Source: Candidatus Aenigmatarchaeota archaeon (GTDB lineage: Archaea; Aenigmatarchaeota; Aenigmatarchaeia; QMZP01). Taken from it: a stretch of 26,682 nt of DNA. Numbering within the stretch: the first letter of the stretch is position 1; each line of letters begins with the position of its first letter. The DNA lies in NCBI GenBank assembly GCA_016782405.1, contig JADHYO010000011.1, positions 1 to 26,682 on the forward strand. Direction: 5' to 3'. Made by a program: the position numbers and the translations under genes. Positions 11-14,137 of the stretch are shown here, in pieces. A model generated the notes under the pieces. It saw only the letters and a list, made by a program, of their open reading frames with translations, searched no databases and was not told the origin of the DNA.

Positions 11-1114
11 GTGAATATGGTTTCTAATTATGCGGACAGGTTGACACAAGCCATCCATGATAAAAACAATCCTTCTGTTGCTGGTTATGATCCAAGGGTA
101 GAATACACACCTAACCATATTTTGAATGCAGCTGTGCGCAGGTATGGTAAAACTCCCAAGGCTGACGGGGATTTTCTAAGGGAGTACTTTACTCTTTTGA
201 CAGAAACTATTGCAGATGTTGTCCCAGCACTGAAACTAAATGCAGCATTCTTCGAGCAATTCGGGCCTGAGGGTTTGGCAGCGATGAAATATATTTCTGA
301 TCATGCCAAGGAGTTTGGGCTGGTTAGGGTTGCAGATGCGAAGCGGAATGATATTGGATCCACTGCTGAGGCCTATGCAAAAACCTGGATTGGGAAGGTT
401 AAACATGCATGGGGCGGATCCTCGCCAAGCATGGATTTCGACGCAGTTACAGTGAATCCTTACCTTGGAAGAGATGGGATTGACCCTTTTATTGATGCTG
501 CCAAGCTATTTGGGAATGGTATTTATGTTCTCTGCAGGACCTCAAACAAATCAGCAGTTGAAACACAGGACAGCTTGACTGACCTGGAGGGCTGGCAGGT
601 TGAAATGATGAATAGGTTAGGGGGGGTAGATGTTATGGGTGAAATAGAAAAACTTCCTGAAGAAACTAGAGAAGCGGCCAAGGCAAAGTTTGCTTGGTTG
701 GATCAGCAGGGAGAAATAACAAGAGCACCAGAATATATCAAAATGGCCACCCTTATTGACATGTGGGGGGAGGATGTTGTTGGTGACTGTGGCTACTCTT
801 CTGTTGGGGCTGTTGTAGGGGCCACTTATCCTGTTGAGGCAATGATACTGAGGGCTTTGCTGCCCCAAACACCATTCCTTGTTCCTGGTTACGGGGCCCA
901 AGGCGGGGGAGCAGCAGGGGTTGTCCCTGCCTTTGATAAGGATGGGAATGGAGCAATCGTGAACAATTCCCGGGCCTTGACATATGCTTGCAGGAGTGGT
1001 GAATTCGAACCCGAAAGGTTCCATCATGCAGCAGCTGAAGCTGCAGGGTTAATGAGGTTTGACATAACAGAGGCTCTTCGAGATGCTGGAAAAGGTAAAT
1101 GGGGAAGGAAATGA
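11..1114 (+). CDS. pyrF: Orotidine 5'-phosphate decarboxylase, family 2 (long form)
   Basis: Translation contains LKLNAAFFE, VADAKRNDIGSTAEAYA and DAVTVNPYLG, matching the family-2 OMPDC substrate-binding and catalytic-Lys motifs. Start is GTG at 11 or ATG at 17. The gene overlaps the downstream PRTase gene by 16 nt. Confidence 0.6.
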   Translation: MNMVSNYADRLTQAIHDKNNPSVAGYDPRVEYTPNHILNAAVRRYGKTPKADGDFLREYFTLLTETIADVVPALKLNAAFFEQFGPEGLAAMKYISDHAKEFGLVRVADAKRNDIGSTAEAYAKTWIGKVKHAWGGSSPSMDFDAVTVNPYLGRDGIDPFIDAAKLFGNGIYVLCRTSNKSAVETQDSLTDLEGWQVEMMNRLGGVDVMGEIEKLPEETREAAKAKFAWLDQQGEITRAPEYIKMATLIDMWGEDVVGDCGYSSVGAVVGATYPVEAMILRALLPQTPFLVPGYGAQGGGAAGVVPAFDKDGNGAIVNNSRALTYACRSGEFEPERFHHAAAEAAGLMRFDITEALRDAGKGKWGRK

Positions 1115-1869
1115 ACGATCAAATAAAAGACTTTGCAAATGCGATTGCGCAGACCCCAGGGGTTTTGCTTATTGACCATAAGTATTTGGAAACAGGTGAA
1201 GCCGACCTTGGGTTAAAGGACGGCAGGAGGGCGCTTTATTTTCTTAATCTGGGAGCAATCGCTGACGGGGAGTCCTGCACGAAAATGGGTTCTGCGTTTG
1301 CTTATTCGCTAAAGCAGAGAAATCATTGGTTTGATGTGGTAATAGGGCCTGCTTACAAGGGTATTACAATCGCTAATGATACTGTGGGAGCATTGTGGAG
1401 GGATTACCGGATAAAGAGGGGGTGGGCATACAAGAGAAAAGAAGCCAAAGAGCATGGGGAGAAAGGATCTGTTATTGGTACAAAACTGAAAGATGGTGAC
1501 AGTTTATGGATGGTGGATGATGTTATATCATCTTCCAAGACTAAAATGGACGAGATGAAATGGTTTGAGGGATATGCTGAACAGAATGGCATTAGCGTCC
1601 CAATCAGTGGCCTCACTGTAGGGATAGACAGGGAGCAGAAGGCTGTGATTGAAGAGCCAGATGGAAGCAAGAAACAGCTGGATGTCAGTGCTTCGCAGTA
1701 TTTCCATGACGAGACATGCCTTCCAGTGGACGTTGTTATCGGGGTAACAGAACTGATGGATTATCTTCACCAGGATAGGGTTGAAGGTCCTGACGGGGTT
1801 GTGATTGACGACAGGTTTATGAAGGCTTTTGAGGAATATCAGAAAGAATTTGGCGCGAAGCCGTGGTGA
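1099..1869 (+). CDS. pyrE: Type I phosphoribosyltransferase, likely orotate phosphoribosyltransferase
   Basis: PRPP-binding motif LWMVDDVISSSKTK (hydrophobic-DD-hydrophobic-small-T/S). N-terminal LKDGRRALYFLN resembles the OPRT F-x-L-x-SG-x-x-SP-x-Y loop. Overlaps and follows pyrF. At 256 aa it is longer than canonical PyrE. Confidence 0.5.
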   Translation: MGKEMNDQIKDFANAIAQTPGVLLIDHKYLETGEADLGLKDGRRALYFLNLGAIADGESCTKMGSAFAYSLKQRNHWFDVVIGPAYKGITIANDTVGALWRDYRIKRGWAYKRKEAKEHGEKGSVIGTKLKDGDSLWMVDDVISSSKTKMDEMKWFEGYAEQNGISVPISGLTVGIDREQKAVIEEPDGSKKQLDVSASQYFHDETCLPVDVVIGVTELMDYLHQDRVEGPDGVVIDDRFMKAFEEYQKEFGAKPW

Positions 1870-1899
1870 ACTTTTATTTCTCCCTTCTAAGGGGAAATC

Positions 1900-2739
1900 A
1901 TGAAAATAGTGTTTTCTCCTCGCTGTTTGCAGTATTACCAGCCTGGCCATCCCGAGGGGCCTGAGAGGATTGAGAGGACGCTGGAACACCTGAAGCAGAG
2001 GGGATATCTTTTTTCTGAGCCAGCTCCTTGCAGGGAGGAGGAGCTGTTGCTCTGCCACAGCCAGGAGCATGTGGACTCTGTGAGGAGCGAGGCGCTGGTT
2101 GGCGGTGAGACGCCTGTGTATTCTGGGATTTTTGATTATGCTCGGCTTGCTGCTGGCGGGGCGCTAAGGGCGATGCTCTATGCCTTGGATGGTGAGGATG
2201 CCTTTTCCCTGATGAGGCCCCCTGGCCACCATGCTTCCAAAGGACCGGAGGGTTTCTGCTATTTTAACAACATTGCGATTGCTGTGAAGAAGGCATTGGA
2301 GAAAGTGGAGAGGGTTGGGATTCTGGATTTTGACGCGCATCATGGGAACGGAACCCAGGATATTTTCCTCGGGGACTCTCAAGTGTTTTATGTCTCGCTC
2401 CATCAAGCAGGGATTTACCCAGGGACAGGCTTGGCCTCAGAGAAAAACTGCATTAATTTTCCTTTAGCTCCATTCACTGGGGAAGAGGAATATTTAAGGA
2501 AATTTGAAAAAAGCCTGGAAAGGATGAAACAATTCATGCCAGACCTACTAGCGGTTTCAGCTGGCTTTGACGCGCATCGAGAGGACCCAATCACCCAGCT
2601 GGGGCTGACTGAGGCAGGCTTCGGAACAATCGGAGAAAAAATCAAGGGGTTTGGGGTTCCTGTGTTTGCTGTGATGGAGGGGGGCTACTCAGAAAAAGTC
2701 CCGAAAAGCGTTAGGGAGTTTTTGCGGGGATTGGAGTGA
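1900..2739 (+). CDS. Histone deacetylase/AcuC/acetylpolyamine amidohydrolase family protein (short form)
   Basis: Motifs PPGHHA, FCYFNNIAIA, DFDAHHGNGTQ and a C-terminal MEGGY correspond to the Zn-dependent deacetylase active site. A GGGG RBS-like stretch precedes the ATG. Confidence 0.7.
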   Translation: MKIVFSPRCLQYYQPGHPEGPERIERTLEHLKQRGYLFSEPAPCREEELLLCHSQEHVDSVRSEALVGGETPVYSGIFDYARLAAGGALRAMLYALDGEDAFSLMRPPGHHASKGPEGFCYFNNIAIAVKKALEKVERVGILDFDAHHGNGTQDIFLGDSQVFYVSLHQAGIYPGTGLASEKNCINFPLAPFTGEEEYLRKFEKSLERMKQFMPDLLAVSAGFDAHREDPITQLGLTEAGFGTIGEKIKGFGVPVFAVMEGGYSEKVPKSVREFLRGLE

Positions 2740-2770
2740 AGCTTAAATTATTTTCCTCGAAAAGGTTGTC

Positions 2771-3463
2771 ATGAGGAGAATGCAAGTTTATCCTGTCCTG
2801 TTGGAGGAGCCTGGGCAGCAGATTGCAGTTGCCCGCGAGCTACTTGAGGCTGGGGCTGACGGGTTTCACATTGATGTGATGGACGGGGTGTACAACAGTG
2901 GCAACACTTTGCGTTTGGTTGACCCCTCCATGATAGAGGAGGTGTACCGCAGGACAGGAGCCCCAATGGATATCCACCTTATGGTTATGGGACCTGCTCA
3001 CTTGGTAGGTGTATACACTTCTGGGGAGCGCAGAACTATTATCTCGCAGTTTGAGTGCTTTCAGAATGAGAATGAATGCTGGGACTTTATTCACAAAACC
3101 AGTGGCTATGGGGGTATGGTGGGGCTTGCGCTGGAGCCAGACACACCAGTTGCTGATATTAGGAAATATTTGCAATATCTTGACCAGGTACTGGTTATGT
3201 CAGTCCCTACCGGTGGGTCAGGGCAGCAGTTCATTAACCAGAGTAAGAAGATTAGGGAGCTTGCAGAGATTAGGGATGAAAGGAATACTAGGAGTGAAAG
3301 GAGATATTGCTTTGTTATTGGAAGTGATGGAGGGATTGATGAGGAAACAGCGCCGCTGGTTAAGAGTGCTGGGTCTGTCAGGGTGGCTGCAGATTCTTCT
3401 ATTAGGAGGGCTAGGGAGAGGGGAATGAGCTACAGGGATATAATCAGGAGCCTGAGGGGTTAG
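2771..3463 (+). CDS. rpe: Ribulose-phosphate 3-epimerase-like protein (with internal insertion)
   Basis: GFHIDVMDGVYNSGN, MDIHLMV, VMSVPTGGSGQQF and GSDGGI ... AADSSI align with Rpe motifs HFDVMDNHYVPN, IDVHLMV, LMSVNPGFGGQSF and VDGG ... AGSAIF. An extra ~40-aa insert lies between strands 3 and 4. Confidence 0.65.
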   Translation: MRRMQVYPVLLEEPGQQIAVARELLEAGADGFHIDVMDGVYNSGNTLRLVDPSMIEEVYRRTGAPMDIHLMVMGPAHLVGVYTSGERRTIISQFECFQNENECWDFIHKTSGYGGMVGLALEPDTPVADIRKYLQYLDQVLVMSVPTGGSGQQFINQSKKIRELAEIRDERNTRSERRYCFVIGSDGGIDEETAPLVKSAGSVRVAADSSIRRARERGMSYRDIIRSLRG

Positions 3464-4396
3464 TCATTTCTTCTCTTGGTTTTTTTGCTTCTTGCTGCTG
3501 ACCTCTGCTTCAAGGGCTGGTAGTGTTTCTTTTATCCTGGCAAGGCGCGACTGGTATTTCTCTGTCTTAATTTTGTAGAGGGACTCTGAGATAATGCCAT
3601 GTTTAAAGCGGTCCTCCTGGGCTTTTTTCATGAGGTGGATCAGGCTTTTTTTCTCCCTTTTCAGGCGGTGGATTTTCTTGATGAGCTTGCGACGGCGGAG
3701 GGCTCTCCAGGATACCAATGCAGCTAGGGAGCAGGCAGCAATGACAATAATTGTTTCAACCCAGTATGTTTCAATGAAGCTTTTTCCAGCAGATGTTATA
3801 ATGCTTAAGGATGTGACAGATGCCTCACTTTCTTCTAGGGTTTGTTTGGCTTGCTCCAGGAGGGAGGAGGCCTCTTCGTAACGTTCTTTGTAAAAGGCTT
3901 CACGGGCCTGCTCCAGAAGGGATGCAGCCTCGGAAGTGTCCACCAACTGCTTCTGTTCTTGCTTAGAAAAAAGATTCATTAAACCGGGCTCTTTGAATTC
4001 TTCTGTGCTGTAGGAATCCAGCTTCTTGCTGAATGCTGTTATTGAATCAAAAAGAATGATTTCATCATCTGCTAGCTGGCAGACTTCTTCTGCAGCTGAA
4101 ATTGCCCCAGCGTATGTTTTTTCTTCAGCAGGCAATCCTGTCAAGGACTGATTTAAGGCAGCGGCAACTGGGCCACTTAACCCTTTCTTCAGGCTTTCAA
4201 CAGATTCAGCCCTCCTCTTGATGTCATTGACCCTGATTAGGAGGTCCTCTGCCATCCCAGTTGGGAGGTTGTTGCTTTTCAATTCTTGGATGCATTGAGA
4301 TGCGTTTTCAATAGCAGAGGCTGCATCCTCCATGGGCTGGGCTGATACCAAAGGGAGGAGTACCAGGAAGGCAGCAAGCAGGGCTAGGGTTTTCAT
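3464..4396 (-). CDS. Secreted, C-terminally membrane-anchored coiled-coil protein; third gene of the giant-surface-protein operon
   Basis: N-terminal signal peptide MKTLALLAAFLVLLPLVSA. Helical/coiled-coil ectodomain, a TM helix (TIIVIAACSLAALVSW) and a basic cytoplasmic tail carrying the AQEDRFKHG...Y...RLARIKE motif shared with the giant protein. Start overlaps the giant ORF stop by 4 nt (ATGA). Confidence 0.6.
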   Translation of the reverse strand: MKTLALLAAFLVLLPLVSAQPMEDAASAIENASQCIQELKSNNLPTGMAEDLLIRVNDIKRRAESVESLKKGLSGPVAAALNQSLTGLPAEEKTYAGAISAAEEVCQLADDEIILFDSITAFSKKLDSYSTEEFKEPGLMNLFSKQEQKQLVDTSEAASLLEQAREAFYKERYEEASSLLEQAKQTLEESEASVTSLSIITSAGKSFIETYWVETIIVIAACSLAALVSWRALRRRKLIKKIHRLKREKKSLIHLMKKAQEDRFKHGIISESLYKIKTEKYQSRLARIKETLPALEAEVSSKKQKNQEKK

Positions 4397-7300
4397 TCTT
4401 CACCTCCTGGCTTGATGTGTTTTGATTCAATAACCATGCGCTCGCCCTCTATTTCAGCGATGCGCCCATTTAGCTCTTTCTCTATTCCCTTGTACTCGTC
4501 TCTTGATGTTTTCCCTTTTTCGAGGTAGTCTTCCTGGGCCTGCTTCAGAGATGACATCACTTCATTGCTCTCCCTGTCCAGGTCCTTGAGAACTTGGTTT
4601 GGTTTGAGGAGGCGGACCCTCTTGTGGCGGAGTGTTGTCCTCTCTTTTTTTATTTTGGCAAGGCGTTTCTGGTAGTCTGAAAGTACAGAGTGGTATGCTG
4701 CATAACCGAGCTTTCCTTTTTCAAGGTAATCTCGCTGGGTTTCTTTTAACAGCTCCTTCAGGGTTTGCTCTTCTTTTTCCAGTCTCCTGATTCTCTCAGA
4801 GATTGTTGCTTTTGTATGGGCCCTGTAACCAACCACACCTGTTGCTGACGCAAGGAACATTGCAATTATTATTGCCCACCAGTAGGTGAGGAGGAATAAC
4901 ACAGGGTTGAAGATGCTGGATTCTGCTGCCAGGCCTAGCATTGCTTCGCGGGCACGCTGCAAGGCTGATGTGTAATCCTCGCGCTCAAATGCTGCTTCAG
5001 CCAGGCGGAGGAGCTCCTCGGTTTTTTCTAAGGAATCAGGAGATCCAGTTAGAGAGAGTGATGCAATATCATTTTTCAGGGATTCAATCAGGTCGCTGGC
5101 TTCTAAAGCATTCTTTTTCATTGATTCTATTTCTTTGCTGAGTTCCCAGACCTTTGAGAAATCCCTTTGTTCCAGGGCTTTTTTTGCGTCAGCCAGCAGT
5201 CCGGATAGTTGGTCTGTGGGGAAGCCTGCTTTTTTCATTTCTTCTAGGGCGGATTCTGCTTCCTTCAGCAACTGGGAGGCTTGGCTCTCGCTTACCTCAT
5301 GTATAACAAGAGTAACAGTCCTGCTTTCAACAAGGTCCTTGTTCACACCATTTCCGATGATTTTACCTGTGATGGTTATAGATAGCCAGTGGGTCCCTGC
5401 TTTCATATAGTCAGGGGATGTTACTGTCACCAAGAATTCTGCGGATTCGCCGAAAGGAATACTCTCTATCTCAACAGGGGAGAACTCAAGGTACTGGGAG
5501 AAGAAACCCTCGATTTTCATGGTCACATCTTCAAGAGCTGCATCTTCAAAGATGTTTTTGACTGTGACTGGGAATAATTGACTCCCTCCGCGCACCAGCT
5601 CCACAGTCTCCTTAGAGGAGAGGAGCTCTTTTCCTCTAAGTACAGCGCTAACAACCTGGGAGGTTGTTGCTCCGCCGGTTGAACCGCCGCCGCCGACTTC
5701 TGTTGTGGTTGTCTGGGTTACTGTTGTGGTGACTGTTGTGGGGATTCCTATGGAAACACTCTTGGAGTCAGAACTGCTGGAGCCTTCAGAAGAGGAGGCT
5801 GTGGCATTGATTGTGACTGTTTTGTTGTCTGCAGTGGAGCTGACATCTATTGTTATTGTATTGGTTGCAGATGAGCCAACTGTGAGGCTGTCAATAGAGC
5901 GGTTGAGTGTGCCACTCTGGTTGGAAAATTCTGCTGGAAGGTCCCAGGCTAACCAGACCCCTGAAGCATCAGAGGTTCCTAGGTTCTCTACCTTGGAAAC
6001 ATAGGTTACACCTGAATCTCCTTTGCTTACAGCAGAGGTGAATGTTGTTATTGTAACAGATAGGAATGGACCTGGGGTATTCTGGATGTTTATCTGGGCA
6101 GATGCTGTGTTTGAGGATGGGGAGGAGGAGCTGTCGTTTGCTGTGGATGTTATTGTGAAATTGTAGGAACCAACTGCAAATCCTGTTGTGTTTGCTGTGA
6201 CATTGAGTTTTCCTGAGGAGCCTGACGGGATTGTTAGGAGCGTGCTTGTGTTCTCTGTTCCATTGAATGTTATCCAAGCTGCGCTTGATGAAAGATTGAA
6301 TTCCAGTGGATGGTCACCTGTGTTGTTGACAGAGACATTGCCCAGTGAAATCACTCTGGGCTCGCTCCTGACAACTGATTTAACTGATGGTATTGTGCTG
6401 TAGAATGTCCATGTCTTGTCCAAGGATACTGAAACGGTTTCAGTTGAGGAGATGTTCTGGTTTCCGCTGTCATCCTCTACCAAAACTCGGAAGGTCCAGT
6501 TGTTTGTTGTGTTTGCAGTGAAGTTTCCTGTAAACAAGTCCCCGGAAAGGGAGTGCATGGTGAAGTTGAGGAATTTTGAGGCATTATTCTCCTTGAACTG
6601 GAGCAGGAGAATGGATAGGTTTGTGTTGTCAGTTGCATTCGCTGTCACGTTTACAGAGACGCCGGGGTCAAGGTCTCCTGTTGAGGAGGGGGAGTAGGTG
6701 ATATTACTTAGGATGGGATTAGTGACATCAGTCACTGTGAATGATGTGGAGGTGGAGTTTTCATTACTAGTGGTGTCATTAACATAGAAGACGCATGTGA
6801 CGCCGCCCTTGGAAAGGTTGGCTGCTGGGATTGTGAGATTCAAATCTGCGGAGGTGCCTGACAGGGAAAATGTTGTGTTTACAAAGGAGCCGCTGGAATT
6901 CTGTTCCACTATACCAAATGCTAGTTCTATGTTGTCGCTCCAGGAGGAGTGGCAGGTTGCAGAGGCATTGTCCGTGGCTGTGGAGGGGTCTGTAGCTGCA
7001 GCAGAGAACTGGGGGGAGGTGTTGTCAAAGGTGAAAAAGATGATGGAAGAGGCGCCGGTGTTCTGGGATGTGTCATTTGCGAAGAATGAGATGTTGTGGG
7101 AGCCCTGGGAAGGGGTGATGGTGGTGTTCCAGAGAATGAGGGAGGCGTTTCCCATGCTCACGTTGGCGGCGTTGTCCAGGGAGTACCAAGCTGCTGAGCT
7201 GTTTTCATCCATGCTTATGTTTAGCAGTAAGGTGGAGTGGAGTGAATTGTTCAGCGGGGAGAGGACAACAATTGAGGGTGGGGTGGTATCGCCTCCTGAT

Positions 7301-10263
7301 GTGTCCACAGTAAAGGTCCGGACAGATGAAGTTCCCATATTATCAATTGAGTCATTGGCAAAGAATTGAATGGTATGGACACCATCAGCTATGGAGTTTA
7401 GTGTGGCTATCCAGAGTGTTGATGATATAGATGTCATGGTGACATTGGCCCCACTGTCCATTGAGTATAAAGCTGAATCAGCGGATTCACCCAGGCTTAT
7501 TGTAGCATAGAAAGTGGATTGGGTGTATGTTTTGTTTTCCGGTGTTGCTACTGTTACTATAGGGGCAGTTGAGTCGCTGATATATGTTCCACTAATTCCG
7601 TTGTTGACAGCTGCCTCGGTGGAGTTGTCAAAGATGTATACAAACCAATCATATACAGCATCAGTGGTGGAGCTGGTGAAGTTGCAGGATGAGTTGATCT
7701 TTGATGTTGTGTTAGAGCATAAGGTTCCGGTTATACAGCCTGAGGAATTTGCTTCACTGGTGTTACATACATAGAGGAATATTGCTTGGCCTAGGTCACC
7801 ATCGGTCTCATTTGAGACAGTGGTTATTGAAATATTTAGACCGCCTTTTATTGTTTCAGCGGAAGCAGATGCAGAGGTGAGGACTGGCAAGCGGTTGATG
7901 TTTATTGTGCTGCTCTGAGTTGACTGCGCGTTGCCTGCATCATCTGTTGAATTGTAGCGGAGGTAATTCGGTCCGCGGTGGGAGGAATTGAATTCAATAA
8001 CTGGGACCCCCCCATCTGAAACTGTGTTTGGTGTACATGTGTCGGTGGTGTCTGTGCAGAATTTTGTTTCAGGGTCGCTATCGACGTTGTCTGACTCTGT
8101 TATGGTGACATTGTAGTCTGGTGAGTGGATGATGGTGTTGGAGCTGTCTGATGTTTGCGGGGCTGTCCAGTCTGTGACAAAGGATATGATGTCAATGTTC
8201 TGAGATGTGTTTTGGCTGTTTGTCATATTGTCTGCACAGGCAATGTAAATGTTTGTTGTGTTGGAGCCTTCTGTGTCAGTTGTGACGGTGCAGGATGAGT
8301 TAGTGCCTGTGGTCACGCATGCCAGTCCTGTACCTGGGTTGTAGGCATTGTCTGTTGTGTAATGCCTGCACAGCATACCATACTCCCCTATGACAGTGAC
8401 GTTTGTATAGCCATCATTCACATTGTCGTAAAAGGTTGCAGGAATTGTTTTAGCAACACTGGTTGTTGCATTGGATGCGTTTTCTGTGACTGTAACTGTG
8501 GATGAAAGGGTTGGTGGGGTTGAGTCTGTTGTGTAGGTTGTTGATTGGGCACTGGAATAATACACTAGGTCATAAACCCTGCAGTATACTGTGTGGGCGG
8601 CATCATCAGTTGTTGCTGTGAAAGTGCAGTTCATTGCAGAGTATGGGTTTGCATAGGAACTGTCTCCCTGGCTACATTGGGTATTGCTTGAGTCAGGTGT
8701 TGCATTCTCAGAGCAGTAAAACCTGAGGTTGTCATTGTTGGAATCATTCACCCCGCTTGGTTCAATTGCTATCAGGCCACCGCCTTTGATTGGATCGGGG
8801 TGGTCTGCAACTGACGAGAGTCTTGGCGTCACTACAATGGTTTGGTTTGATGTTCCAACCAGGAATATGTCTGAATCGTAGAAAAGGGCTTTTATAGTGA
8901 AATTGCCTTTCGATGTATTCATTGGGAGGGTGTGGTTGTATTCCCAGAGATTTTCTGAGTTGTTGACTCCCTGATGAACTGTTCCGTTGATTTGGAATGT
9001 GACATTTGTTATAACTGATGTGCCGCCGGTTTCGTTGAAACTTATGTTCACTGTATCATTAATCATGAATTCTTGCAGGAGGGTTGGGGTTACAAAGCTT
9101 GTGTTTGGCACATCACCAAAAGTATAGGTTGCAAATCCAAAGCTGTCTGTGCTTGTTCTGTTGTAAAATGTGTATTCCACCTTGTTGTAATTCATCCTGT
9201 TGGTCTTAGGGAAATTACTGCAACGTGTTGTTGGGTAGCGGTGATGGTCTGTTGAAAACTTTATTAGGACAGGTGCGCCAAACCCACCAGGTCCGGAATG
9301 ATTGACATATCCAATTACGTCGTCTGCTCCAGTTTCATTGGTGAAAATAATGTGGTAAAGTCCATTCCCATCAATGCAGCCAGATAGGTCCTCGCTGTCT
9401 AGCGAGCCCAGCGTGCTTTCATGGAATGTTTCACCGGAGTCGTTGCTGTATACAACCAGGAGGGTGTCTGTTTCTATTTCACCTGTTATCAGGATGTGAT
9501 CACCCCGCGTGTTGATTGAAACACTGTGGACACTGCTTCCATCTGATCCTGTATGCACGCTCCTGGATGTGGACGTTACAAAATTGTCTGAGGAGTTGTA
9601 CAGCATTAAGTTGTCAGGTATGCCCTGCTGATCATCAACAGCAATGTATATGTCACCATCATCAGTAACGTCAATGCCACACATGTTCGTGTTCCTGGCG
9701 TTACCAATCTCTGTTCTGGTCCATGTTCCAGATTCTGAGTCAAGTGTGGCGTTGATAAAAACTGTATCCTCGGCTGAGTCATATGCGCATATCACCCATT
9801 GGTTGTTGACCCCGTCATAAGCAACAGCAGGTTCGTTCAGGTTGCTTGTCAGCCCTGCTGCATCCGCCAGTGAGGAAAAGCCTGCGCAGCCTGTGTCAGT
9901 TACTGAATACTGGATGTCCCCCTGTCCTGTCTGGTCTGCTATTACTATTGCTCTTGTACCGTTTGTTGCTATGCTTGGCCATTGGTAGGTTCCTCCTCCG
10001 ATCTCTGTTTCACTGGACCAGGTTGCCCCGTTGTCTGTGGACTGGGCACATCTGACGTCATTGTCAACATCCTCCCATACAGCTATCAGCATTTCATTGT
10101 CCAGCCTTACCATATTTTTCTGGGCTGGGTCTCCACCTGCTGTTGCAGCGACTGCCTTGCTTGAAGGGTTGCTTATGTAAGAGCTGCTGAAACCTGCATA
10201 GGCTGTGGCAGTCAGTAGCGAAAGCCCTATTACAACTGCAAGTATGAAAAAAGATTGTTTCAT
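4393..10263 (-). CDS. Giant (1956 aa) secreted surface glycoprotein: N-terminal BNR/Asp-box beta-propeller, long Ser/Thr/Asn-rich Ig-like repeat region, poly-Thr linker, helical stalk, C-terminal TM helix and repeated cytoplasmic coiled-coil motif
   Basis: Signal peptide MKQSFFILAVVIGLSLLTATAYA. Asp-box motifs STDNGATWS and SNDSGETF. Very high density of N-x-S/T sequons. Linker PTTVTTTVTQTTTTEVGGGGSTGG. TM PVLFLLTYWWAIIIAMFLASATGVVGY. The tail carries two copies of Q(R/E)DYLEKGK...Y...(R)(L/I)A.I..E. Confidence 0.8.
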   Translation of the reverse strand: MKQSFFILAVVIGLSLLTATAYAGFSSSYISNPSSKAVAATAGGDPAQKNMVRLDNEMLIAVWEDVDNDVRCAQSTDNGATWSSETEIGGGTYQWPSIATNGTRAIVIADQTGQGDIQYSVTDTGCAGFSSLADAAGLTSNLNEPAVAYDGVNNQWVICAYDSAEDTVFINATLDSESGTWTRTEIGNARNTNMCGIDVTDDGDIYIAVDDQQGIPDNLMLYNSSDNFVTSTSRSVHTGSDGSSVHSVSINTRGDHILITGEIETDTLLVVYSNDSGETFHESTLGSLDSEDLSGCIDGNGLYHIIFTNETGADDVIGYVNHSGPGGFGAPVLIKFSTDHHRYPTTRCSNFPKTNRMNYNKVEYTFYNRTSTDSFGFATYTFGDVPNTSFVTPTLLQEFMINDTVNISFNETGGTSVITNVTFQINGTVHQGVNNSENLWEYNHTLPMNTSKGNFTIKALFYDSDIFLVGTSNQTIVVTPRLSSVADHPDPIKGGGLIAIEPSGVNDSNNDNLRFYCSENATPDSSNTQCSQGDSSYANPYSAMNCTFTATTDDAAHTVYCRVYDLVYYSSAQSTTYTTDSTPPTLSSTVTVTENASNATTSVAKTIPATFYDNVNDGYTNVTVIGEYGMLCRHYTTDNAYNPGTGLACVTTGTNSSCTVTTDTEGSNTTNIYIACADNMTNSQNTSQNIDIISFVTDWTAPQTSDSSNTIIHSPDYNVTITESDNVDSDPETKFCTDTTDTCTPNTVSDGGVPVIEFNSSHRGPNYLRYNSTDDAGNAQSTQSSTININRLPVLTSASASAETIKGGLNISITTVSNETDGDLGQAIFLYVCNTSEANSSGCITGTLCSNTTSKINSSCNFTSSTTDAVYDWFVYIFDNSTEAAVNNGISGTYISDSTAPIVTVATPENKTYTQSTFYATISLGESADSALYSMDSGANVTMTSISSTLWIATLNSIADGVHTIQFFANDSIDNMGTSSVRTFTVDTSGGDTTPPSIVVLSPLNNSLHSTLLLNISMDENSSAAWYSLDNAANVSMGNASLILWNTTITPSQGSHNISFFANDTSQNTGASSIIFFTFDNTSPQFSAAATDPSTATDNASATCHSSWSDNIELAFGIVEQNSSGSFVNTTFSLSGTSADLNLTIPAANLSKGGVTCVFYVNDTTSNENSTSTSFTVTDVTNPILSNITYSPSSTGDLDPGVSVNVTANATDNTNLSILLLQFKENNASKFLNFTMHSLSGDLFTGNFTANTTNNWTFRVLVEDDSGNQNISSTETVSVSLDKTWTFYSTIPSVKSVVRSEPRVISLGNVSVNNTGDHPLEFNLSSSAAWITFNGTENTSTLLTIPSGSSGKLNVTANTTGFAVGSYNFTITSTANDSSSSPSSNTASAQINIQNTPGPFLSVTITTFTSAVSKGDSGVTYVSKVENLGTSDASGVWLAWDLPAEFSNQSGTLNRSIDSLTVGSSATNTITIDVSSTADNKTVTINATASSSEGSSSSDSKSVSIGIPTTVTTTVTQTTTTEVGGGGSTGGATTSQVVSAVLRGKELLSSKETVELVRGGSQLFPVTVKNIFEDAALEDVTMKIEGFFSQYLEFSPVEIESIPFGESAEFLVTVTSPDYMKAGTHWLSITITGKIIGNGVNKDLVESRTVTLVIHEVSESQASQLLKEAESALEEMKKAGFPTDQLSGLLADAKKALEQRDFSKVWELSKEIESMKKNALEASDLIESLKNDIASLSLTGSPDSLEKTEELLRLAEAAFEREDYTSALQRAREAMLGLAAESSIFNPVLFLLTYWWAIIIAMFLASATGVVGYRAHTKATISERIRRLEKEEQTLKELLKETQRDYLEKGKLGYAAYHSVLSDYQKRLAKIKKERTTLRHKRVRLLKPNQVLKDLDRESNEVMSSLKQAQEDYLEKGKTSRDEYKGIEKELNGRIAEIEGERMVIESKHIKPGGEE

Positions 10264-10472
10264 TCATCTCCCCCCTTTTTGCTCACCTGCCAGACATTAA
10301 TATTACTTATCCTTAAACCACTCACCTTGCCATGTATTTGGAGCTTTAGGCAGTGCCGATCAATTGTGTGCCATGCCCTTTTTGTTTTTAAGGAAATCTC
10401 CCGAGTGGAAACTGGTTGGCTGGATTGTTTCAGTACCTTCAGGATTTCTTTGTCGATTGTTTCAATACCCAT
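10260..10472 (-). CDS. Small winged-helix DNA-binding protein, first gene of the giant-surface-protein operon
   Basis: 70-aa ORF with an HTH-like core (STREISLKTKRAWHTIDRHCLKLQIHGKV + wing). Its stop overlaps the giant ORF start (ATGA). A TATA-like box lies ~30 bp upstream. Confidence 0.45.
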   Translation of the reverse strand: MGIETIDKEILKVLKQSSQPVSTREISLKTKRAWHTIDRHCLKLQIHGKVSGLRISNINVWQVSKKGGDE

Positions 10473-10498: not shown

Positions 10499-10506
10499 AT
10501 ATAAAT
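10499..10506 (-). promoter_or_regulatory. TATA-like box (TTTATATG on minus strand) for the wHTH-giant protein operon
   Basis: AT box ~31 bp upstream of the minus-strand start codon at 10472, consistent with a leaderless archaeal transcript. Confidence 0.3.
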
Positions 10507-10542: not shown

Positions 10543-10560
10543 GGTGCGAACGTTCGCACC
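10543..10560. promoter_or_regulatory. Perfect 18-bp palindrome GGTGCGAACGTTCGCACC
   Basis: Read directly from sequence. Lies ~40 bp upstream of the putative TATA of the minus-strand operon and ~100 bp downstream of the KaiC-like gene 3' end. Candidate operator or UAS. Confidence 0.4.
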
Positions 10561-10660
10561 TTGAAATCGGTGTGCTGTGTGGTGGTGAAACAGTATAACA
10601 ATGTTATATTAACCCAGAAACAATCAAAAATAACAGTTCAACATTCAATGAAACAATTAC

Positions 10661-11650
10661 TTAATCCGCTTCCCCAAAAACTTGCTGGTTGGGGTAGACA
10701 ACAATTCCGTTCTCAGTTATTTCCATTGCCACAATCTTTTCCTCGTGGCGGGCTCCGCGAAGCTTTAGCATCTCAATGGCGCGCTCGCGAACATTGCCGC
10801 GCTTGATGTTGTAGATGACAACCACCCCGTCTGCAAGAAACTCCTCGACCCCGGTTTGGCTGAAGATTGTGGGAACTTGTTTTGTTTCTGTTATTAGAAA
10901 AGCGTTCGCTTCTATTCTTTCAAAGAACCGAAACAGTTGTTCAATATAGGCACGGTAGCTTTCTTCTTTCCCTGTGAATGCAGAGGCTATTGCAGTCAGT
11001 GAGTCCAATGCAATGACATCCGGACGGAATCCTTTAGGAAGAATTAGGGGCTCCATATCTATCAAGAGCTCGCCCTTAGCCTTCATTAGGAGAGCATCAA
11101 CAGAGCGGGTGATTTCAAATGGGTTGAATCTCTTTATTACCAGGTTGCCGCTCTTTATCATGGAATCAGCATCCCACCCAAACTCCTCTATGTGGTCCTT
11201 CAGCCTTTCCTCAGACTCTTCGAAACTCATGTAGATACATTTCTTACCATCGCTTGCTTTTTTCATTAATGTTTGAAGGCAGAAAATAGTTTTTCCACTC
11301 CCCGCACCACCTGCCACAATGACCGCATAGCCCTTGGGGATACCTTTCTCCAGAAGCTGGTCAAAACCAGGAATTCCAGTCTTGATGTACTGCTTAACTC
11401 TCCCTGCTTTTTTGTGGGTTGCACTGTCAATCACGTGCTTGACTGGGGCACGCTGCTTCAGAATATCAGCGTGCTTTTTCTCAATTTCTCCGCCCTTGAG
11501 TTTTTTCTCAATTTCACTCTTCACTTTAGTAGAATCAAATGTTTCGCTTGCTGGTTTCGGATCGGACTTTGCACTCTCTGTTTTTTTATTTGGTTTTTTT
11601 TCTGGTGTACTGAACGTAACCCTCTTTTCTTTTTTCCTAAAGCCTAACAT
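10661..11650 (-). CDS. KaiC-like single-domain RecA-superfamily ATPase with basic, disordered N-terminal extension
   Basis: GIPGFDQLLEKGIPKGYAVIVAGGAGSGKT (Walker A), Walker B/catalytic Glu region LIDMEPL...VIALDS, and C-terminal EMLKLRGARHEEKI typical of archaeal KaiC/RadA-like ATPases. The first ~90 aa are Lys-rich and low-complexity. Confidence 0.8.
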   Translation of the reverse strand: MLGFRKKEKRVTFSTPEKKPNKKTESAKSDPKPASETFDSTKVKSEIEKKLKGGEIEKKHADILKQRAPVKHVIDSATHKKAGRVKQYIKTGIPGFDQLLEKGIPKGYAVIVAGGAGSGKTIFCLQTLMKKASDGKKCIYMSFEESEERLKDHIEEFGWDADSMIKSGNLVIKRFNPFEITRSVDALLMKAKGELLIDMEPLILPKGFRPDVIALDSLTAIASAFTGKEESYRAYIEQLFRFFERIEANAFLITETKQVPTIFSQTGVEEFLADGVVVIYNIKRGNVRERAIEMLKLRGARHEEKIVAMEITENGIVVYPNQQVFGEAD

Positions 11651-11776
11651 AGTTAATATTTATTTGAAATGATATAAAAGATTTGCCGAATTTTACCATT
11701 TGCTCGCACGGTTTGCTAGCGTTATTAGCTTCTCAAAATTCTTTCCTTTTAATATTTCCAGCAACATTAATTAATA

Positions 11777-12325
11777 ATGGACCAATTGGGTTCTCAGTTT
11801 AAAGACCTTCCGGATGGTTTTATTGCGCTGGTGCTTACAGACGCAGAAGAAATGCTGAAGACCAATATTACAATACTTAAGGAATTGACAAAGCAAGATC
11901 ACATTGGGCTTTACATAACAGTCAATCAGCCATACAAGAGACTGCTCCAGCTGCTGGATAACAACAAGATTCCCACAGACAGGATGTTTTTTATTGACTG
12001 TGTGACAAGGATGGCTGGAGGGACGTCAAAGAGGGAGAATAACTGCATATTCATTGCAAGCCCTTCTGGCCTTACGGAGCTGGGGATTGCAATTTCGCAG
12101 GCACTGGAAAGCTTCCCTGACAAGAAGAAATACATTTACATGGATGCGCTTTCCACTCTGATAATTTACAACACTGCTGGATCTATTGCAAAGTTTTCGC
12201 ACTTTATCATGAGCAAAATAAAAATCCTCGGGGTGTCTGGGGTATTCATAGCTGCAAGAAAGGAAGTTGATGAACAATTGATTGCGCAGATTGCGCAGTT
12301 TTGTGATAAGGTAATTAGGACATGA
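11777..12325 (+). CDS. DUF835-like protein: predicted inactivated (P-loop-less) KaiC/RecA-fold domain
   Basis: No Walker A. Segments GLYITVNQPYKRL...MFFIDCVT and YIYMDALSTLIIYNTAGSIAKFSHFI...ILGVSGVFIAARKEVDEQ resemble, from recollection, archaeal DUF835 domains (…GLCITRTHP…WLS… / …LDGLEYLI..NGF..VLKFL…). Divergently transcribed from the KaiC-like gene. Confidence 0.45.
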   Translation: MDQLGSQFKDLPDGFIALVLTDAEEMLKTNITILKELTKQDHIGLYITVNQPYKRLLQLLDNNKIPTDRMFFIDCVTRMAGGTSKRENNCIFIASPSGLTELGIAISQALESFPDKKKYIYMDALSTLIIYNTAGSIAKFSHFIMSKIKILGVSGVFIAARKEVDEQLIAQIAQFCDKVIRT

Positions 12326-12369: not shown

Positions 12370-12792
12370 ATGCCGTCAGCAATTGAGGTTGGGGTTTATC
12401 TTGTGGTATTTCTTGGGGCGTGCTACACTGTAATGATGCTTTTATATGCGCAGAGGCGTTTCCTTCGCGGTGAAATTAAGGACTTCATAAATGCTATTGT
12501 CGCAGCTGCTACTGCCTTTTTGTTAGGATCGCTTTTGATTTTGCTGATGAATATTTATTCCAACACTGTATTTTACTCCACGCTATTGCTTGCTGCAGGG
12601 TTTGCGTTCCTGCTTACAAGTGTTTATTTTGTGAAGGGCGCTGTGAAGCTGCACGAGGTTTCCAAGGTTTTTGGGTTTGCTGAGGTGGAAAAGGAACTTG
12701 GATCAGCCTTAATGGGGAAGCGGGTGCCTCTGCCGAAGGCGCGGAAGCCTGCAAAGAAAGCACCAAAGAGGAAAGCATCCCGAGCCGCATGA
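12370..12792 (+). CDS. Small integral membrane protein (3-4 TM helices) with Lys/Arg/Pro-rich C-terminal tail
   Basis: Hydrophobic segments VGVYLVVFLGACYTVMMLLYA, AIVAAATAFLLGSLLILLM, STLLLAAGFAFLLTSVYFV. Tail PLPKARKPAKKAPKRKASRAA. Lies 44 nt downstream of the DUF835-like gene. Confidence 0.5.
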   Translation: MPSAIEVGVYLVVFLGACYTVMMLLYAQRRFLRGEIKDFINAIVAAATAFLLGSLLILLMNIYSNTVFYSTLLLAAGFAFLLTSVYFVKGAVKLHEVSKVFGFAEVEKELGSALMGKRVPLPKARKPAKKAPKRKASRAA

Positions 12793-13501: not shown

Positions 13502-13544
13502 AAAATGTTTTAAAGAGGGGGAAAGGGGTGAAAGGCACAAAGGG

Positions 13545-14086: not shown

Positions 14087-14099
14087 ATGCAAATCTTAT

Positions 14100-14134: not shown

Positions 14135-14137
14135 TAT

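What the first reader, a model, noticed from the sequence alone, without database searches (positions are those of the whole stretch)
3464..10472. Translationally coupled wHTH - giant BNR-propeller glycoprotein - coiled-coil anchor operon with a shared cytoplasmic-tail motif present three times
Seen in sequence:
- Three minus-strand ORFs joined by ATGA overlaps at 10260-10263 and 4393-4396.
- The 1956-aa product has a signal peptide and Asp-box (SxDxGxTW/F) motifs in the first ~300 aa. It continues with over 1000 aa of Thr/Ser/Asn-rich repeats dense in N-x-S/T sequons, then a poly-Thr/Gly linker, a helical stalk, one TM helix and a cytoplasmic tail.
- The tail of the giant protein carries …TQRDYLEKGKLGYAAYHSVLSDYQKRLAKIKKE… and …AQEDYLEKGKTSRDEYKGIEKELNGRIAEIEGE….
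- The downstream 310-aa protein has the same membrane-proximal layout and a third copy of the motif (…AQEDRFKHGIISESLYKIKTEKYQSRLARIKE…).

Inference: both surface proteins are read by a common cytoplasmic partner, for example for sorting, anchoring or signalling. The adjacent KaiC-like ATPase/DUF835 module is a candidate partner. The giant protein may be an S-layer-associated adhesin or glycan-binding, sialidase-like protein of an archaeon.
Basis: partly seen in the sequence, partly recalled or inferred. Interest (0 to 1): 0.6.

Follow-up and report, generated by a model that had tools for sequence, protein, structure and literature searches.

The report
Giant archaeal surface protein, paralogous anchor, KaiC partner
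A DPANN archaeon encodes a giant sugar-coated surface protein and a small "headless" copy of its membrane-proximal end; the pair shares a conserved inner-face helical motif and sits beside a dedicated KaiC-type ATPase in all nine relatives with enough flanking DNA, which points to an undescribed, widespread adhesion or signalling device.

Summary
Three minus-strand ORFs (wHTH 70 aa, giant G 1956 aa, anchor A 310 aa) are joined by ATGA overlaps. The tail motif occurs exactly three times in the window, twice in G and once in A.

Comparative data take it further.
- A is a full-length paralogue of G's helical stalk, TM helix and first tail hairpin (hhalign E=7e-23).
- This module defines a large unannotated family: 1978 cluster representatives at E<=1e-3, with no Pfam or NCBIfam model.
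- Among giants of 1300 aa or more in the top hits, 26 carry two motif copies like G. Another 26 are natural G+A fusions carrying 2+1 copies.
- G-A pairs lie next to one KaiC orthologue group (50-75% identity) in 9 of 9 loci with enough flank. Inactive KaiC-like (DUF7504/DUF7090) genes usually accompany it, and che, REC or histidine-kinase genes sometimes do.
- The head is a swappable module. Here it is a probable Asp-box beta-propeller, supported by two Asp boxes (P=1.5e-4). The structure model is poor, and the sialidase FRIP motif is absent.

Best reading: G and A form one heteromeric surface adhesin or receptor functionally coupled to a KaiC/iKaiC signalling module. Direct binding of the tails to KaiC is inferred, not shown. 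An S-layer role is not excluded.

The parts
10260..10472 (-). 70-aa small basic protein H, a probable winged-helix DNA binder. It is the first gene of the H-G-A transcription unit.
   Evidence: ORF. Its ATGA overlap with G is confirmed. Its own Pfam match is only HTH_12 at E=0.07. The 70%-identical L001 orthologue hits HTH_24 at E=1.9e-4. pI is 9.9.
10499..10505 (-). Archaeal TATA-box-like element TTTATAT, 26 nt upstream of the H start codon. This spacing suggests a leaderless or short-leader mRNA.
   Evidence: Read directly from the sequence. Not tested statistically.
4393..10263 (-). Giant type-I membrane glycoprotein G (1956 aa).
   Evidence: ORF and translation. Orthologues P0033 (1858 aa) and P0019 (2049 aa) are 38-63% identical in the body and 40-80% in the tail, but only 23-24% in the head.
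10195..10263 (-). G signal peptide (residues 1-23).
   Evidence: Hydrophobic N-terminus followed by AYA|G. Identified by inspection only.
9109..10194 (-). G head (residues about 24-385): an all-beta, probable Asp-box beta-propeller. It is the variable module.
   Evidence: Two Asp boxes, P(>=2)=1.5e-4. BNR_2 E=0.006, below threshold. The model has pLDDT 45 with about 20 strands. Its Foldseek hits are all propellers, at E down to 3.5e-11 and TM about 0.6. Only one homologue was found, P0012 at 53% identity.
5710..9108 (-). G body (residues about 386-1518): a chain of divergent Ig-like/CARDB-like beta-sandwich domains dense in N-x-S/T sequons.
   Evidence: Most of G's 81 sequons lie here, against 38.7+-5 expected for residues 1-1560. 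Weak Big_13, Cadherin, DUF11 (E=1.8e-6) and NPCBM_assoc (E=2.6e-5) matches. Internal repeats at 897-987 and 992-1080.
5623..5709 (-). Thr/Gly-rich linker (residues about 1519-1547).
   Evidence: Sequence. Gly-rich linkers sit at the same place in relatives P0008, P0009 and P0013.
5299..5622 (-). Conserved membrane-proximal beta-sandwich (residues about 1548-1655).
   Evidence: 57-61% identical to the orthologues. Weak NPCBM_assoc match at E=0.02. Present in all C-terminal homologues P0008-P0011.
4909..5298 (-). Alpha-helical ecto-stalk (residues about 1656-1785) ending in the AAFEREDY TPR-like helix. It is homologous to the ectodomain of A.
   Evidence: hhalign of the A family against G 1651-1956 gives E=6.9e-23. 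The homologous part of a natural fusion is modelled as all-helical.
4834..4908 (-). G transmembrane helix (residues about 1786-1810) with the conserved YWW start.
   Evidence: Hydropathy. Conservation.
4636..4794 (-). G cytoplasmic hairpin 1 (residues 1824-1876).
   Evidence: Unit HMM E=5e-18. Consensus.
4591..4635 (-). Conserved basic connector KERTTLRHKRVRLLKP between the two hairpins (residues 1877-1891).
   Evidence: 67-80% identical to the orthologues, the best-conserved stretch of G. Family consensus kLR.KRv.llk.
4435..4590 (-). G cytoplasmic hairpin 2 (residues 1892-1943), ending in the family's RLAEIE signature (RIAEIE in G).
   Evidence: Unit HMM E=2.7e-10. Consensus.
3464..4396 (-). 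Anchor A (310 aa), a headless paralogue of G's stalk, TM helix and hairpin 1. Layout: signal peptide 1-19, five-helix ectodomain 20-209, TM 210-233, hairpin 241-293.
   Evidence: ORF. BLASTP to the G C-terminus E=3e-13. hhalign E=6.9e-23 across nearly the whole mature protein. Homologues P0002-P0007 and 51 further A-type proteins. ATGA overlap with G.
3518..3676 (-). A cytoplasmic hairpin (residues 241-293), with the LMKKAQEDRF...Y...KY..RL..IKE.LP.LE signature.
   Evidence: Unit HMM E=5e-21. It is the most conserved part of the A family.
10661..11650 (-). Single-domain KaiC-family ATPase with a Lys-rich N-terminal extension. It has its own TATA-like element (TTTTATAT, 11672-11679).
   Evidence: Pfam KaiC E=5e-51. 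Matches PDB KaiC at E=1.6e-46. Walker A GGAGSGKT and the SFEESEE motif are visible in the sequence. Orthologues at 50-75% identity lie beside giant-anchor pairs in L001, L009, L011, L012, L013, L014, L015 and L016. It is not ArlH (38.8 bits against a cut-off of 215).
11777..12325 (+). Inactive KaiC-like protein (DUF7504, weak DUF835), divergent from the KaiC gene.
   Evidence: Pfam DUF7504 E=5.8e-11. No P-loop is visible in the sequence. Orthologues occur in L001 (69%), L011, L012, L013 (three copies), L015 and L016. DUF835 is termed 'iKaiC' in PMC5847659.
12370..12792 (+). 140-aa small polytopic membrane protein with a basic tail. It is a possible accessory member, conserved only in the closest relative.
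   Evidence: 62-65% identical orthologue at the same position in L001. No significant family match.

Best explanation
The window carries one copy of a conserved cell-surface system of DPANN archaea.

G is a type-I membrane glycoprotein with these parts, in order:
- an exchangeable ligand-binding head, here a probable Asp-box beta-propeller of lectin or sialidase-like shape;
- a long leg of heavily N-glycosylated beta-sandwich domains;
- a flexible Thr/Gly hinge;
- a conserved beta-sandwich, a helical stalk and one TM helix;
- a basic cytoplasmic tail of two antiparallel helical hairpins joined by a KLRHKRVRLL connector.

A is a headless paralogue of the stalk, TM helix and first hairpin. G and A are made together from one message through translational coupling. 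They most likely assemble side by side through their homologous stalks, TM helices and hairpins, which places three hairpins under the membrane.

This unit works with a dedicated KaiC-family ATPase, its inactive KaiC-like partner and, in this lineage, a small wHTH protein. The proposed mechanism has two possible directions. Either ligand or host contact at the head is relayed through the stalk and TM bundle to the hairpin platform, which recruits or releases the KaiC/iKaiC complex, with wHTH or two-component proteins as output. Or KaiC state controls the adhesin from inside.

Shown: the architecture, the G/A paralogy, the natural G+A fusions, the size of the family, and the conserved KaiC/iKaiC neighbourhood.
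Inferred: glycosylation, G-A contact, tail-KaiC contact, the direction of signalling, and the adhesive role.
For: 1. G/A paralogy: BLASTP E=3e-13. hhalign E=6.9e-23 over A residues 20-297 against G 1655-1880.
2. One functional unit. ATGA coupling is seen here and a 4-nt overlap in 7 of 9 other loci. Of the giants of 1300 aa or more in the top 150 family hits, 26 are single polypeptides with the layout SP-ecto-TM-h1-h2-TM-(A-like ecto)-TM-h3. One further protein has the reverse order.
3. Constraint on the cytoplasmic side. The hairpins and the basic connector are among the best-conserved stretches. Positions L5, E8, L15, K17, Q20, F24, IS29-30, Y34, Y41, RL44-45 and I48 are shared by all three hairpin classes.
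4. Family size: 1978 representatives at E<=1e-3 and 401 at E<=1e-30.
5. KaiC link. A 50-75% identical KaiC lies within a few kb of G-A in the window and in L001, L009, L011, L012, L013, L014, L015 and L016. It can be upstream, downstream, convergent or divergent. The A proteins of the loci where identity to A was measured (L001, L002, L003, L007, L008, L009, L011) are only 23-46% identical. iKaiC (DUF7504/DUF7090) is present in 7 of these 9 loci and in the P0066 locus.
6. Signalling context: che genes in L012, REC plus histidine kinases in the P0066 locus and L015, a hemerythrin-KaiC fusion in L016, and an HTH-like N-terminal extension on KaiC in L009 and L015.
7. Head swapping typical of adhesins or receptors: head identity to the orthologues is 23-24% against 38-63% in the body. 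FG-GAP or LamG heads occur elsewhere.
8. Hairpin geometry. In a model of a natural fusion (pLDDT 79), each TM helix runs straight into the first helix of its hairpin.
9. Precedent. ArlX is a single-TM protein whose cytosolic domain forms a ring that binds the KaiC-like ArlH (PMC8978795).
Against: - No physical interaction was tested. Synteny shows functional linkage, not contact.
- The fusion model has pTM 0.43, so how the three hairpins pack is unknown.
- Fold and sequence searches with the tail return only generic helical hairpins, so nothing specific supports a docking function.
- The P0066 locus has an iKaiC-like gene but no active KaiC within 8 kb.
- L010 has an anchor-like gene with no giant and no KaiC homologue on the 20 kb held.
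- The small wHTH gene is seen upstream of the giant in only three or four of the loci, so it is not a core part.
- The head model is of low confidence, and no ligand can be named.
- Expression level is unknown, so an abundant structural (S-layer) role cannot be excluded.
Confidence: 0.5

Rival explanations
1. G and A are the structural cell-envelope (S-layer) pair of these archaea. G would be the glycosylated canopy protein and A a stalk or anchor subunit, as with SlaA/SlaB. The hairpins would only fix the lattice to the membrane or to each other. The KaiC/iKaiC genes would be neighbours for regulatory or unrelated reasons.
For: - G is a large, acidic (pI 4.2) ectodomain rich in sequons and Ig-like domains. 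It has a small co-transcribed partner with a helical ectodomain and a C-terminal TM helix.
- DPANN surface proteins with Ig folds, many N-glycosylation sites and a C-terminal TM helix have been proposed as S-layer or anchoring proteins (bioRxiv 10.1101/2023.10.27.564410).
- The family is very widespread.
Against: - Unlike SlaA, G has its own TM anchor. A is a paralogue of G rather than a distinct anchor.
- Heads are swapped between close orthologues (propeller, FG-GAP, LamG, none). That fits ligand recognition better than a lattice-forming surface.
- The conserved cytoplasmic tail of about 150 aa and the constant KaiC neighbourhood (9 of 9 loci) are not features of known S-layer genes.
- The gene follows a regulator gene in a multi-gene unit rather than standing alone behind a strong promoter.
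Confidence: 0.2
2. The three hairpins are only an oligomerisation device, a cytoplasmic helical bundle that holds G and A together or clusters them. KaiC/iKaiC and wHTH would control expression of the operon without touching the tails.
For: - The hairpins show heptad-like spacing.
- Natural G+A fusions keep exactly 2+1 copies.
- An HTH-like domain is fused to KaiC in two loci, which suggests a transcriptional output.
Against: - Surface-exposed positions such as Q20, the K/R runs and the KLRHKRVRLL connector are conserved more strongly than a simple bundle would need.
- The KaiC gene stays next to G-A even where no wHTH gene is present (L013, L014, L011).
Confidence: 0.2
3. The KaiC-family ATPase is a mechanical or assembly factor for the giant protein, helping membrane insertion, export, turnover or extraction. 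Alternatively, the tail docks the translation or translocation machinery, as the cytosolic helical domain of ribophorin I/OST1 does.
For: - Giant, heavily glycosylated substrates might need help during synthesis.
Against: - KaiC-family proteins are known as signalling or autokinase proteins rather than translocases (established knowledge; PMC8978795).
- iKaiC, REC, histidine-kinase and che neighbours point to signalling.
Confidence: 0.07

Closest known systems
SlaA/SlaB S-layer pair of Sulfolobales
   Same: A large glycosylated Ig-rich surface protein is encoded with a small partner that has a helical or coiled-coil ectodomain and a C-terminal TM anchor. Both carry many N-glycosylation sites.
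   Different: No sequence similarity was found with Pfam, NCBIfam or PDB. G has its own TM helix and a 150-aa conserved cytoplasmic tail. A is a paralogue of G. The head is exchangeable. The KaiC neighbourhood is constant.
ArlX-ArlH of the crenarchaeal archaellum (PMC8978795)
   Same: A single-pass membrane protein with a helical cytosolic domain serves as the docking scaffold for a single-domain KaiC-like ATPase.
   Different: The KaiC here is not ArlH (38.8 bits against a cut-off of 215). No archaellum genes are nearby. ArlX has no ectodomain. No interaction has been shown here.
Archaeal KaiC / inactivated-KaiC (DUF835, MEDS) signalling modules (Makarova et al. 2017, cited in PMC5847659)
   Same: An active single-domain KaiC is paired with an inactive KaiC-like protein. 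HTH, hemerythrin and REC fusions or neighbours are seen.
   Different: I found no report of a link to a giant surface protein and its anchor paralogue in the papers I could search. The 2017 paper itself was not held.
Integrin alpha/beta heterodimers (an analogy, not homology)
   Same: A propeller head (FG-GAP in the L001 orthologue) sits on Ig-like legs. Two type-I subunits are paired through membrane-proximal, TM and short cytoplasmic segments, which couple to cytoplasmic partners.
   Different: No detectable homology beyond the FG-GAP repeats of one orthologue. The second subunit is a headless paralogue. The tails are helical hairpins. The organism is an archaeon.
BNR/Asp-box beta-propellers (sialidase superfamily) and propeller lectins (PLL/PHL, AAL)
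   Same: The head has two Asp boxes, an all-beta prediction of about 20 strands, and structural matches that are all propellers.
   Different: Pfam BNR_2 is below threshold. No FRIP motif is present. The model confidence is too low to count blades. The best matches are 7-bladed lectins that lack Asp boxes.
Putative surface proteins of cultivated DPANN (Nanobdella aerobiophila MJ1_0299/0309/0707 class; 10.1101/2023.10.27.564410)
   Same: Signal peptide, several Ig-like folds, many N-glycosylation sites and a C-terminal TM helix. A role in the S-layer or in host contact has been proposed.
   Different: That paper describes no conserved cytoplasmic hairpins, no paralogous anchor and no KaiC link.
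SHOCT domain (PF09851; a resemblance recalled from memory)
   Same: A short helix-turn-helix with a G-x-I-[ST]-x-x-x-[YF] turn, found at the cytoplasmic end of membrane proteins.
   Different: No SHOCT hit appeared when the two tails were scanned at E<=10, nor among the families listed for the 51 A-family members scanned at E<=1. It is not filed as a member.

Membership tests
Giant-anchor stalk/TM/hairpin module (the unnamed family defined here by alignment A2) | An ecto helix A..AF.ReDY, a TM helix starting F...YW, then the cytoplasmic unit L..E..L..LmK.aQ..[YR]F....IS...Y......Y..RL..I | tested here: met
   G and A both match. There are 1978 representatives at E<=1e-3.
Giant-anchor stalk/TM/hairpin module | A 2+1 hairpin layout: two copies on the giant and one on the adjacent or fused anchor | tested here: met
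   The window has 2+1. 26 giants have 2 copies, 26 fusions have 3, and 52 of 56 proteins of 280-400 aa have 1.
Giant-anchor stalk/TM/hairpin module | A neighbouring KaiC orthologue, with or without an inactive KaiC-like gene | tested here: met
   Seen in the window plus 8 other loci, that is 9 of 9 with enough flank. The sample is small and not random.
BNR/Asp-box sialidase-like beta-propeller | Repeated Asp boxes S-x-D-x-G-x-T-W/F | tested here: met
   Two strict boxes at residues 75 and 273, with P(>=2)=1.5e-4 in shuffles. Both are conserved in P0012. Canonical members usually have 3-5.
BNR/Asp-box sialidase-like beta-propeller | A significant match to the family profile (BNR_2/BNR) | tested here: not met
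   BNR_2 gives E=0.006 at 16.4 bits against a cut-off of 31.4. BNR gives E=0.08.
BNR/Asp-box sialidase-like beta-propeller | A six-bladed propeller fold | tested here: inconclusive
   The model has pLDDT 44.9 and pTM 0.44 from a 2-sequence alignment. Foldseek matches are all propellers, whether 7-blade PLL lectins, 6-blade AAL, GH BT3686 or sialidases, with TM 0.3-0.64. The blade number cannot be read.
BNR/Asp-box sialidase-like beta-propeller | The catalytic sialidase signature (FRIP motif or Arg triad) | tested here: not met
   No [FYWL]R[IVL]P motif occurs in residues 1-420. The Arg triad cannot be judged without a reliable model.
KaiC family ATPase (neighbour gene 10661-11650) | A RecA-like KaiC domain with Walker A and catalytic glutamates | tested here: met
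   Pfam PF06745 E=5e-51. PDB KaiC E=1.6e-46. GGAGSGKT and SFEESEE are visible in the sequence.
ArlH (archaellum KaiC-like protein) | A score above the NCBIfam ArlH equivalog cut-off, plus an arl gene context | tested here: not met
   38.8 bits against a cut-off of 215. No arl genes are in the window.
Winged helix-turn-helix regulator (70-aa protein H) | A significant match to an HTH or wHTH profile | tested here: inconclusive
   The window protein gives HTH_12 at E=0.07. The L001 orthologue gives HTH_24 at E=1.9e-4, 21.4 bits against a cut-off of 21.9. hhalign to the HTH-like N-terminus of the L009/L015 KaiC gives probability 4.5%.
SlaA/SlaB-type S-layer proteins | Sequence or profile similarity to known S-layer families, and lattice formation | tested here: not met
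   No S-layer family appears in the Pfam or NCBIfam hits, and nothing in PDB. Lattice formation cannot be tested with these tools.
SHOCT domain | A match to PF09851 | tested here: not met
   No hit when the tails were scanned at E<=10. It is also absent from the families listed for the 51 A-family members.
N-glycosylated archaeal surface protein | Occupied N-x-S/T sequons | not testable with these tools
   Only a twofold sequon enrichment can be shown.

The most novel reading that the evidence does not exclude
This is an undescribed transmembrane adhesion and signalling machine, present at least in Aenigmarchaeota and Woesearchaeota. A head-swappable giant glycoprotein and its headless paralogue would present a three-hairpin cytoplasmic platform to a dedicated KaiC/inactive-KaiC ATPase pair. 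That would make it an archaeal, integrin-like outside-in or inside-out receptor controlling how ultrasmall episymbiotic archaea recognise and hold their hosts or substrates.
Probability: 0.25. Interest if true: 0.85.

Novelty: new variant of a known kind. Interest (0 to 1): 0.62.

Why it matters
DPANN archaea make up a large share of archaeal diversity, and those cultivated so far live attached to other cells. The molecules that mediate and regulate attachment are essentially unknown. Archaeal KaiC-like ATPases are proposed signalling hubs, but few have known inputs.

This system offers a concrete candidate for both problems.
- It is widespread: about 2000 cluster representatives.
- It is easy to recognise by its cytoplasmic signature.
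- It ties a variable extracellular binding head to a specific KaiC clade.

It also supplies natural G+A fusion proteins and more than a thousand homologues. That is enough for co-evolution analysis and multimer modelling to test the proposed contacts. No Pfam or NCBIfam model covers the module, so these genes are currently annotated only as 'hypothetical protein'.

Tried and rejected
- Pfam on whole proteins and on eight segments at E<=10 gave no family for the tail, including SHOCT. NCBIfam gave nothing for G, A, H, DUF7504 or the small membrane protein.
- PDB sequence searches with G and with the module profile returned only non-significant coiled-coil, TPR-design, CdvA and OST1 hits.
- 24 of 51 A-family members give sub-threshold ECM10 hits. 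These map to the juxtamembrane 'FF.(K/R)YW' and TM segment, and I rejected them as a TM-composition match.
- The head structure prediction was limited by a 2-sequence alignment, because only one homologue was found. I therefore did not count blades.
- Homology between the free 70-aa protein and the HTH-like N-terminus fused to KaiC in L009 and L015 could not be shown (BLASTP found no hit; hhalign probability 4.5%). I do not use it as a Rosetta-stone argument.
- The palindromes in the KaiC-wHTH spacer are not conserved in L001, so they are not proposed as the operator.
- The predicted archaeal secretion system with Ig-like S-layer proteins (arCOG01314/02884, PMC5898192) is a different MoxR/vWA system.
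- The Makarova 2017 mBio paper and the afdb50 library were not available.
- The genome-contig scan used a single peptide pattern and found only 4 loci. It therefore says little about taxonomic breadth.

Full report
SOURCE AND OBSERVATION
The 310-aa ORF is identical to a protein of a 'Candidatus Aenigmarchaeota archaeon' MAG whose longest contig is 26,682 bp, which is the window itself.

Both junctions are ATGA overlaps, and A is preceded by a GGAGGTGA-like ribosome-binding site. A TTTATAT element lies 26 nt upstream of the H start codon. A TTTTATAT element lies 21 nt upstream of the KaiC start codon. So H-G-A and the KaiC gene each appear to have their own archaeal promoter.

ANATOMY OF G
- G starts with a signal-peptide-like segment.
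- The head (about 24-385) has two strict Asp boxes. The chance of two or more in shuffles is 1.5e-4, and only 0.023 are expected in the whole ectodomain. Both boxes are kept in the single detectable homologue of the head, P0012 at 53% identity.
- Pfam BNR_2 is below threshold (E=0.006), and there is no FRIP motif.
- AlphaFold2 with this 2-sequence alignment gave a poor model (pLDDT 44.9). It is all-beta with about 20 strands. Its PDB matches are exclusively beta-propellers: PLL/PHL lectins at E~1e-10, AAL, GH BT3686 and sialidases at E~1e-7.
- My reading is that a propeller is likely, an Asp-box type is plausible, and a catalytic sialidase is unsupported.
- Residues about 386-1518 are Thr/Ser/Asn-rich. 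Residues 1-1560 hold 81 sequons against 38.7+-5 expected, and most lie in this stretch. They are not a simple repeat. Only two pairs of segments are recognisably repeated, and the weak Big_13, Cadherin, DUF11 and NPCBM_assoc matches indicate a chain of divergent beta-sandwiches.
- After a Thr/Gly linker come a conserved beta-sandwich (about 1548-1655), a helical stalk, one TM helix and a basic tail.

THE MOTIF AND THE G/A RELATIONSHIP
A unit HMM built from family members finds exactly three copies in the six-frame translation of the window: G 1824-1876, G 1892-1943 and A 241-293.

The similarity is much wider than the motif. BLASTP aligns 130 residues across ecto-helix, TM helix and tail (E=3e-13). 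A 51-member profile of the A family aligns A residues 20-297 with G 1655-1880 (probability 99.5%, E=6.9e-23). A is therefore a headless paralogue of G's stalk, TM helix and first hairpin.

All three hairpin classes share L5, E8, L15, K17, Q20, F24, IS29-30, Y34, Y41, RL44-45 and I48 with heptad-like spacing. Each class also has its own signature: h1 is followed by kLR.KRv.ll, h2 ends in RLAEIE, and the A hairpin has RF...LPVLE.

FAMILY
Word-indexed searches found only a handful of relatives. An exhaustive HMM search with the module alignment A2 found 1978 representatives at E<=1e-3, 1552 at E<=1e-10 and 401 at E<=1e-30. None that I looked up carries a name other than 'hypothetical protein'.

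Copy numbers in the top 150:
- proteins of about 300 aa have one hairpin (52 of 56);
- of the giants of 1300 aa or more, 26 have two hairpins;
- another 26 have three, with the regular layout SP-ecto-TM-h1-h2-TM-(A-like ectodomain)-TM-h3.

The three-copy proteins are natural G+A fusions. One protein, P0065, has the reverse order. P0013 strings together several modules.

SYNTENY
In every related locus except L010, the anchor directly follows a large protein. There is a 4-nt overlap in 7 of 9 measured cases.

The neighbouring KaiC-family ATPase is an active-looking single-domain protein (Pfam E=5e-51; Walker A and SFEESEE present). It has orthologues of 50-75% identity beside the giant-anchor genes in eight other loci:
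- L001, same order as the window;
- L009, with an HTH-like N-terminal extension;
- L011, convergent and downstream;
- L012, alongside che genes;
- L013, alongside three iKaiC genes;
- L014, overlapping the 3' end of a fused giant;
- L015, two copies upstream;
- L016, a hemerythrin fusion 6 kb downstream.
These rest.

Where measured, the anchors are only 23-46% identical to A. This KaiC is therefore more conserved than its neighbours, yet it keeps their company in different orders and orientations.

DUF7504/DUF7090 proteins (inactive KaiC-like; compare 'iKaiC' in PMC5847659) accompany the pair in 7 of these 9 loci. They also occur in the P0066 locus, where response regulators and histidine kinases follow the anchor.

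The small wHTH gene is seen upstream of the giant only in the window, L001, probably the P0066 locus, and more distantly L014. It is a lineage-specific accessory. Homology between it and the HTH-like extension of KaiC in L009 and L015 could not be demonstrated.

HEAD VARIABILITY
Against its two closest full-length relatives, G is 38-63% identical in the body, 40-61% in the stalk region and 40-80% in the tail. In the head it is only 23-24%, which amounts to unrelated. The L001 orthologue has an FG-GAP head. Others have LamG heads. P0019 has a different N-terminus.

INTERPRETATION
The shown facts are:
- G and A are paralogous;
- they are translationally coupled;
- they are naturally fused in half of the two- and three-copy giants in the top hits (26 of 52);
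- the cytoplasmic hairpins are strongly conserved;
- the heads are swapped between orthologues;
- the KaiC/iKaiC neighbourhood is constant.

These fit best with a heteromeric surface adhesin or receptor whose cytoplasmic three-hairpin platform is functionally coupled to a KaiC-type signalling module. The closest mechanistic precedent is ArlX, a single-pass protein whose cytosolic domain scaffolds the KaiC-like ArlH (PMC8978795). Contact between the tails and KaiC, the direction of signalling and the adhesive role are all inferences.

The main rival is a structural S-layer pair, as proposed for similar-looking DPANN proteins (10.1101/2023.10.27.564410). It is weakened by the head swapping, by G's own anchor and by the conserved tail and KaiC link, but it is not excluded without expression or imaging data. 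A more modest rival is that the hairpins only hold G and A together while KaiC and wHTH act on transcription.

NOVELTY
Giant glycosylated Ig-rich, TM-anchored surface proteins of DPANN and archaeal KaiC/iKaiC hubs are both known kinds. I did not find three things described in the searchable literature, and no Pfam or NCBIfam model exists for them: the conserved stalk/TM/hairpin module, its paralogous or fused anchor, and its fixed association with one KaiC clade. The key 2017 KaiC survey could not be read, so prior mention there cannot be excluded. I rate this a new variant of a known kind, with interest 0.62.

Noticed in passing
window 10543-10560 and 10594-10608: A perfect 18-bp palindrome GGTGCGAAC/GTTCGCACC and a TATAACA-T-TGTTATA palindrome lie in the 188-bp spacer between the KaiC gene and the wHTH gene. 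They could be a terminator or an operator. They are not conserved in the L001 orthologous spacer.
   Followed up: partly
window 12902-15227: Two tandem pairs of a wHTH-nucleotidyltransferase (MNT) gene followed by a HEPN gene: 12902-13501 with 13545-13988, and 14138-14731 with 14688-15227. MNT/HEPN genes also sit between the anchor and the KaiC genes in L016 and in L003. An MNT-HEPN fusion family is listed among DPANN-specific gene clusters in PMC6393860.
   Followed up: no
window 12370-12792; L001 2045-2479: A 140-aa polytopic membrane protein with a Lys/Arg-rich tail follows the DUF7504 gene. It is 62-65% identical at the same position in L001. It has no family match and was not found in the other loci.
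   Followed up: partly
L012 434-3825; L015 20707-23904; P0066 locus (no DNA held): Chemotaxis genes (CheC, two REC, CheD, CheC/X) lie directly upstream of DUF7504-KaiC-giant in L012. REC and HAMP/PAS/dCache histidine kinases lie directly downstream of the anchor in two other loci. The system may plug into two-component or chemotaxis signalling.
   Followed up: no
L009 1068-2360; L015 4882-6087; L016 17184-18644: The syntenic KaiC carries different N-terminal input or output domains. Two loci have a 70-aa HTH-like domain whose sequences are 68% identical to each other. One locus has a hemerythrin domain.
   Followed up: partly
P0013 (1683 aa), P0035, P0087; L003 1-3429: Some family members deviate from the 2 or 2+1 layout. 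P0013 has five hairpin units and several TM helices. P0035 has four units. P0087 and the L003 giant continue for 230-690 residues of Lys/Glu-rich cytoplasmic sequence after hairpin 2.
   Followed up: no
L010 9445-10468: An anchor-like gene stands alone, with no giant gene upstream and no KaiC homologue on the 20 kb held. It appears split by a frameshift into two overlapping ORFs. It may be a decaying copy.
   Followed up: no
L012 5977-9673: The only homologue of the window's propeller head (P0012) belongs to a giant gene that is broken into a 476-aa and a 762-aa ORF. This is either a frameshift or an assembly error.
   Followed up: no
A-family juxtamembrane segment (window A residues about 204-233): The 'FF.(K/R)YW' start of the TM helix gives sub-threshold matches to the C-terminal TM region of the eukaryotic ER membrane complex subunit 10 model in 24 of 51 family members. 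I judged this a compositional TM match.
   Followed up: yes
[not shown]
   Followed up: partly
window 11-3463: Four plus-strand genes lie at this end of the window: OMP-decarboxylase/HUMPS-like, a weak phosphoribosyltransferase match, a histone-deacetylase-family gene and a ribulose-phosphate 3-epimerase-family gene. They converge on the 3' end of the anchor gene, with essentially no spacer between 3463 and 3464.
   Followed up: no
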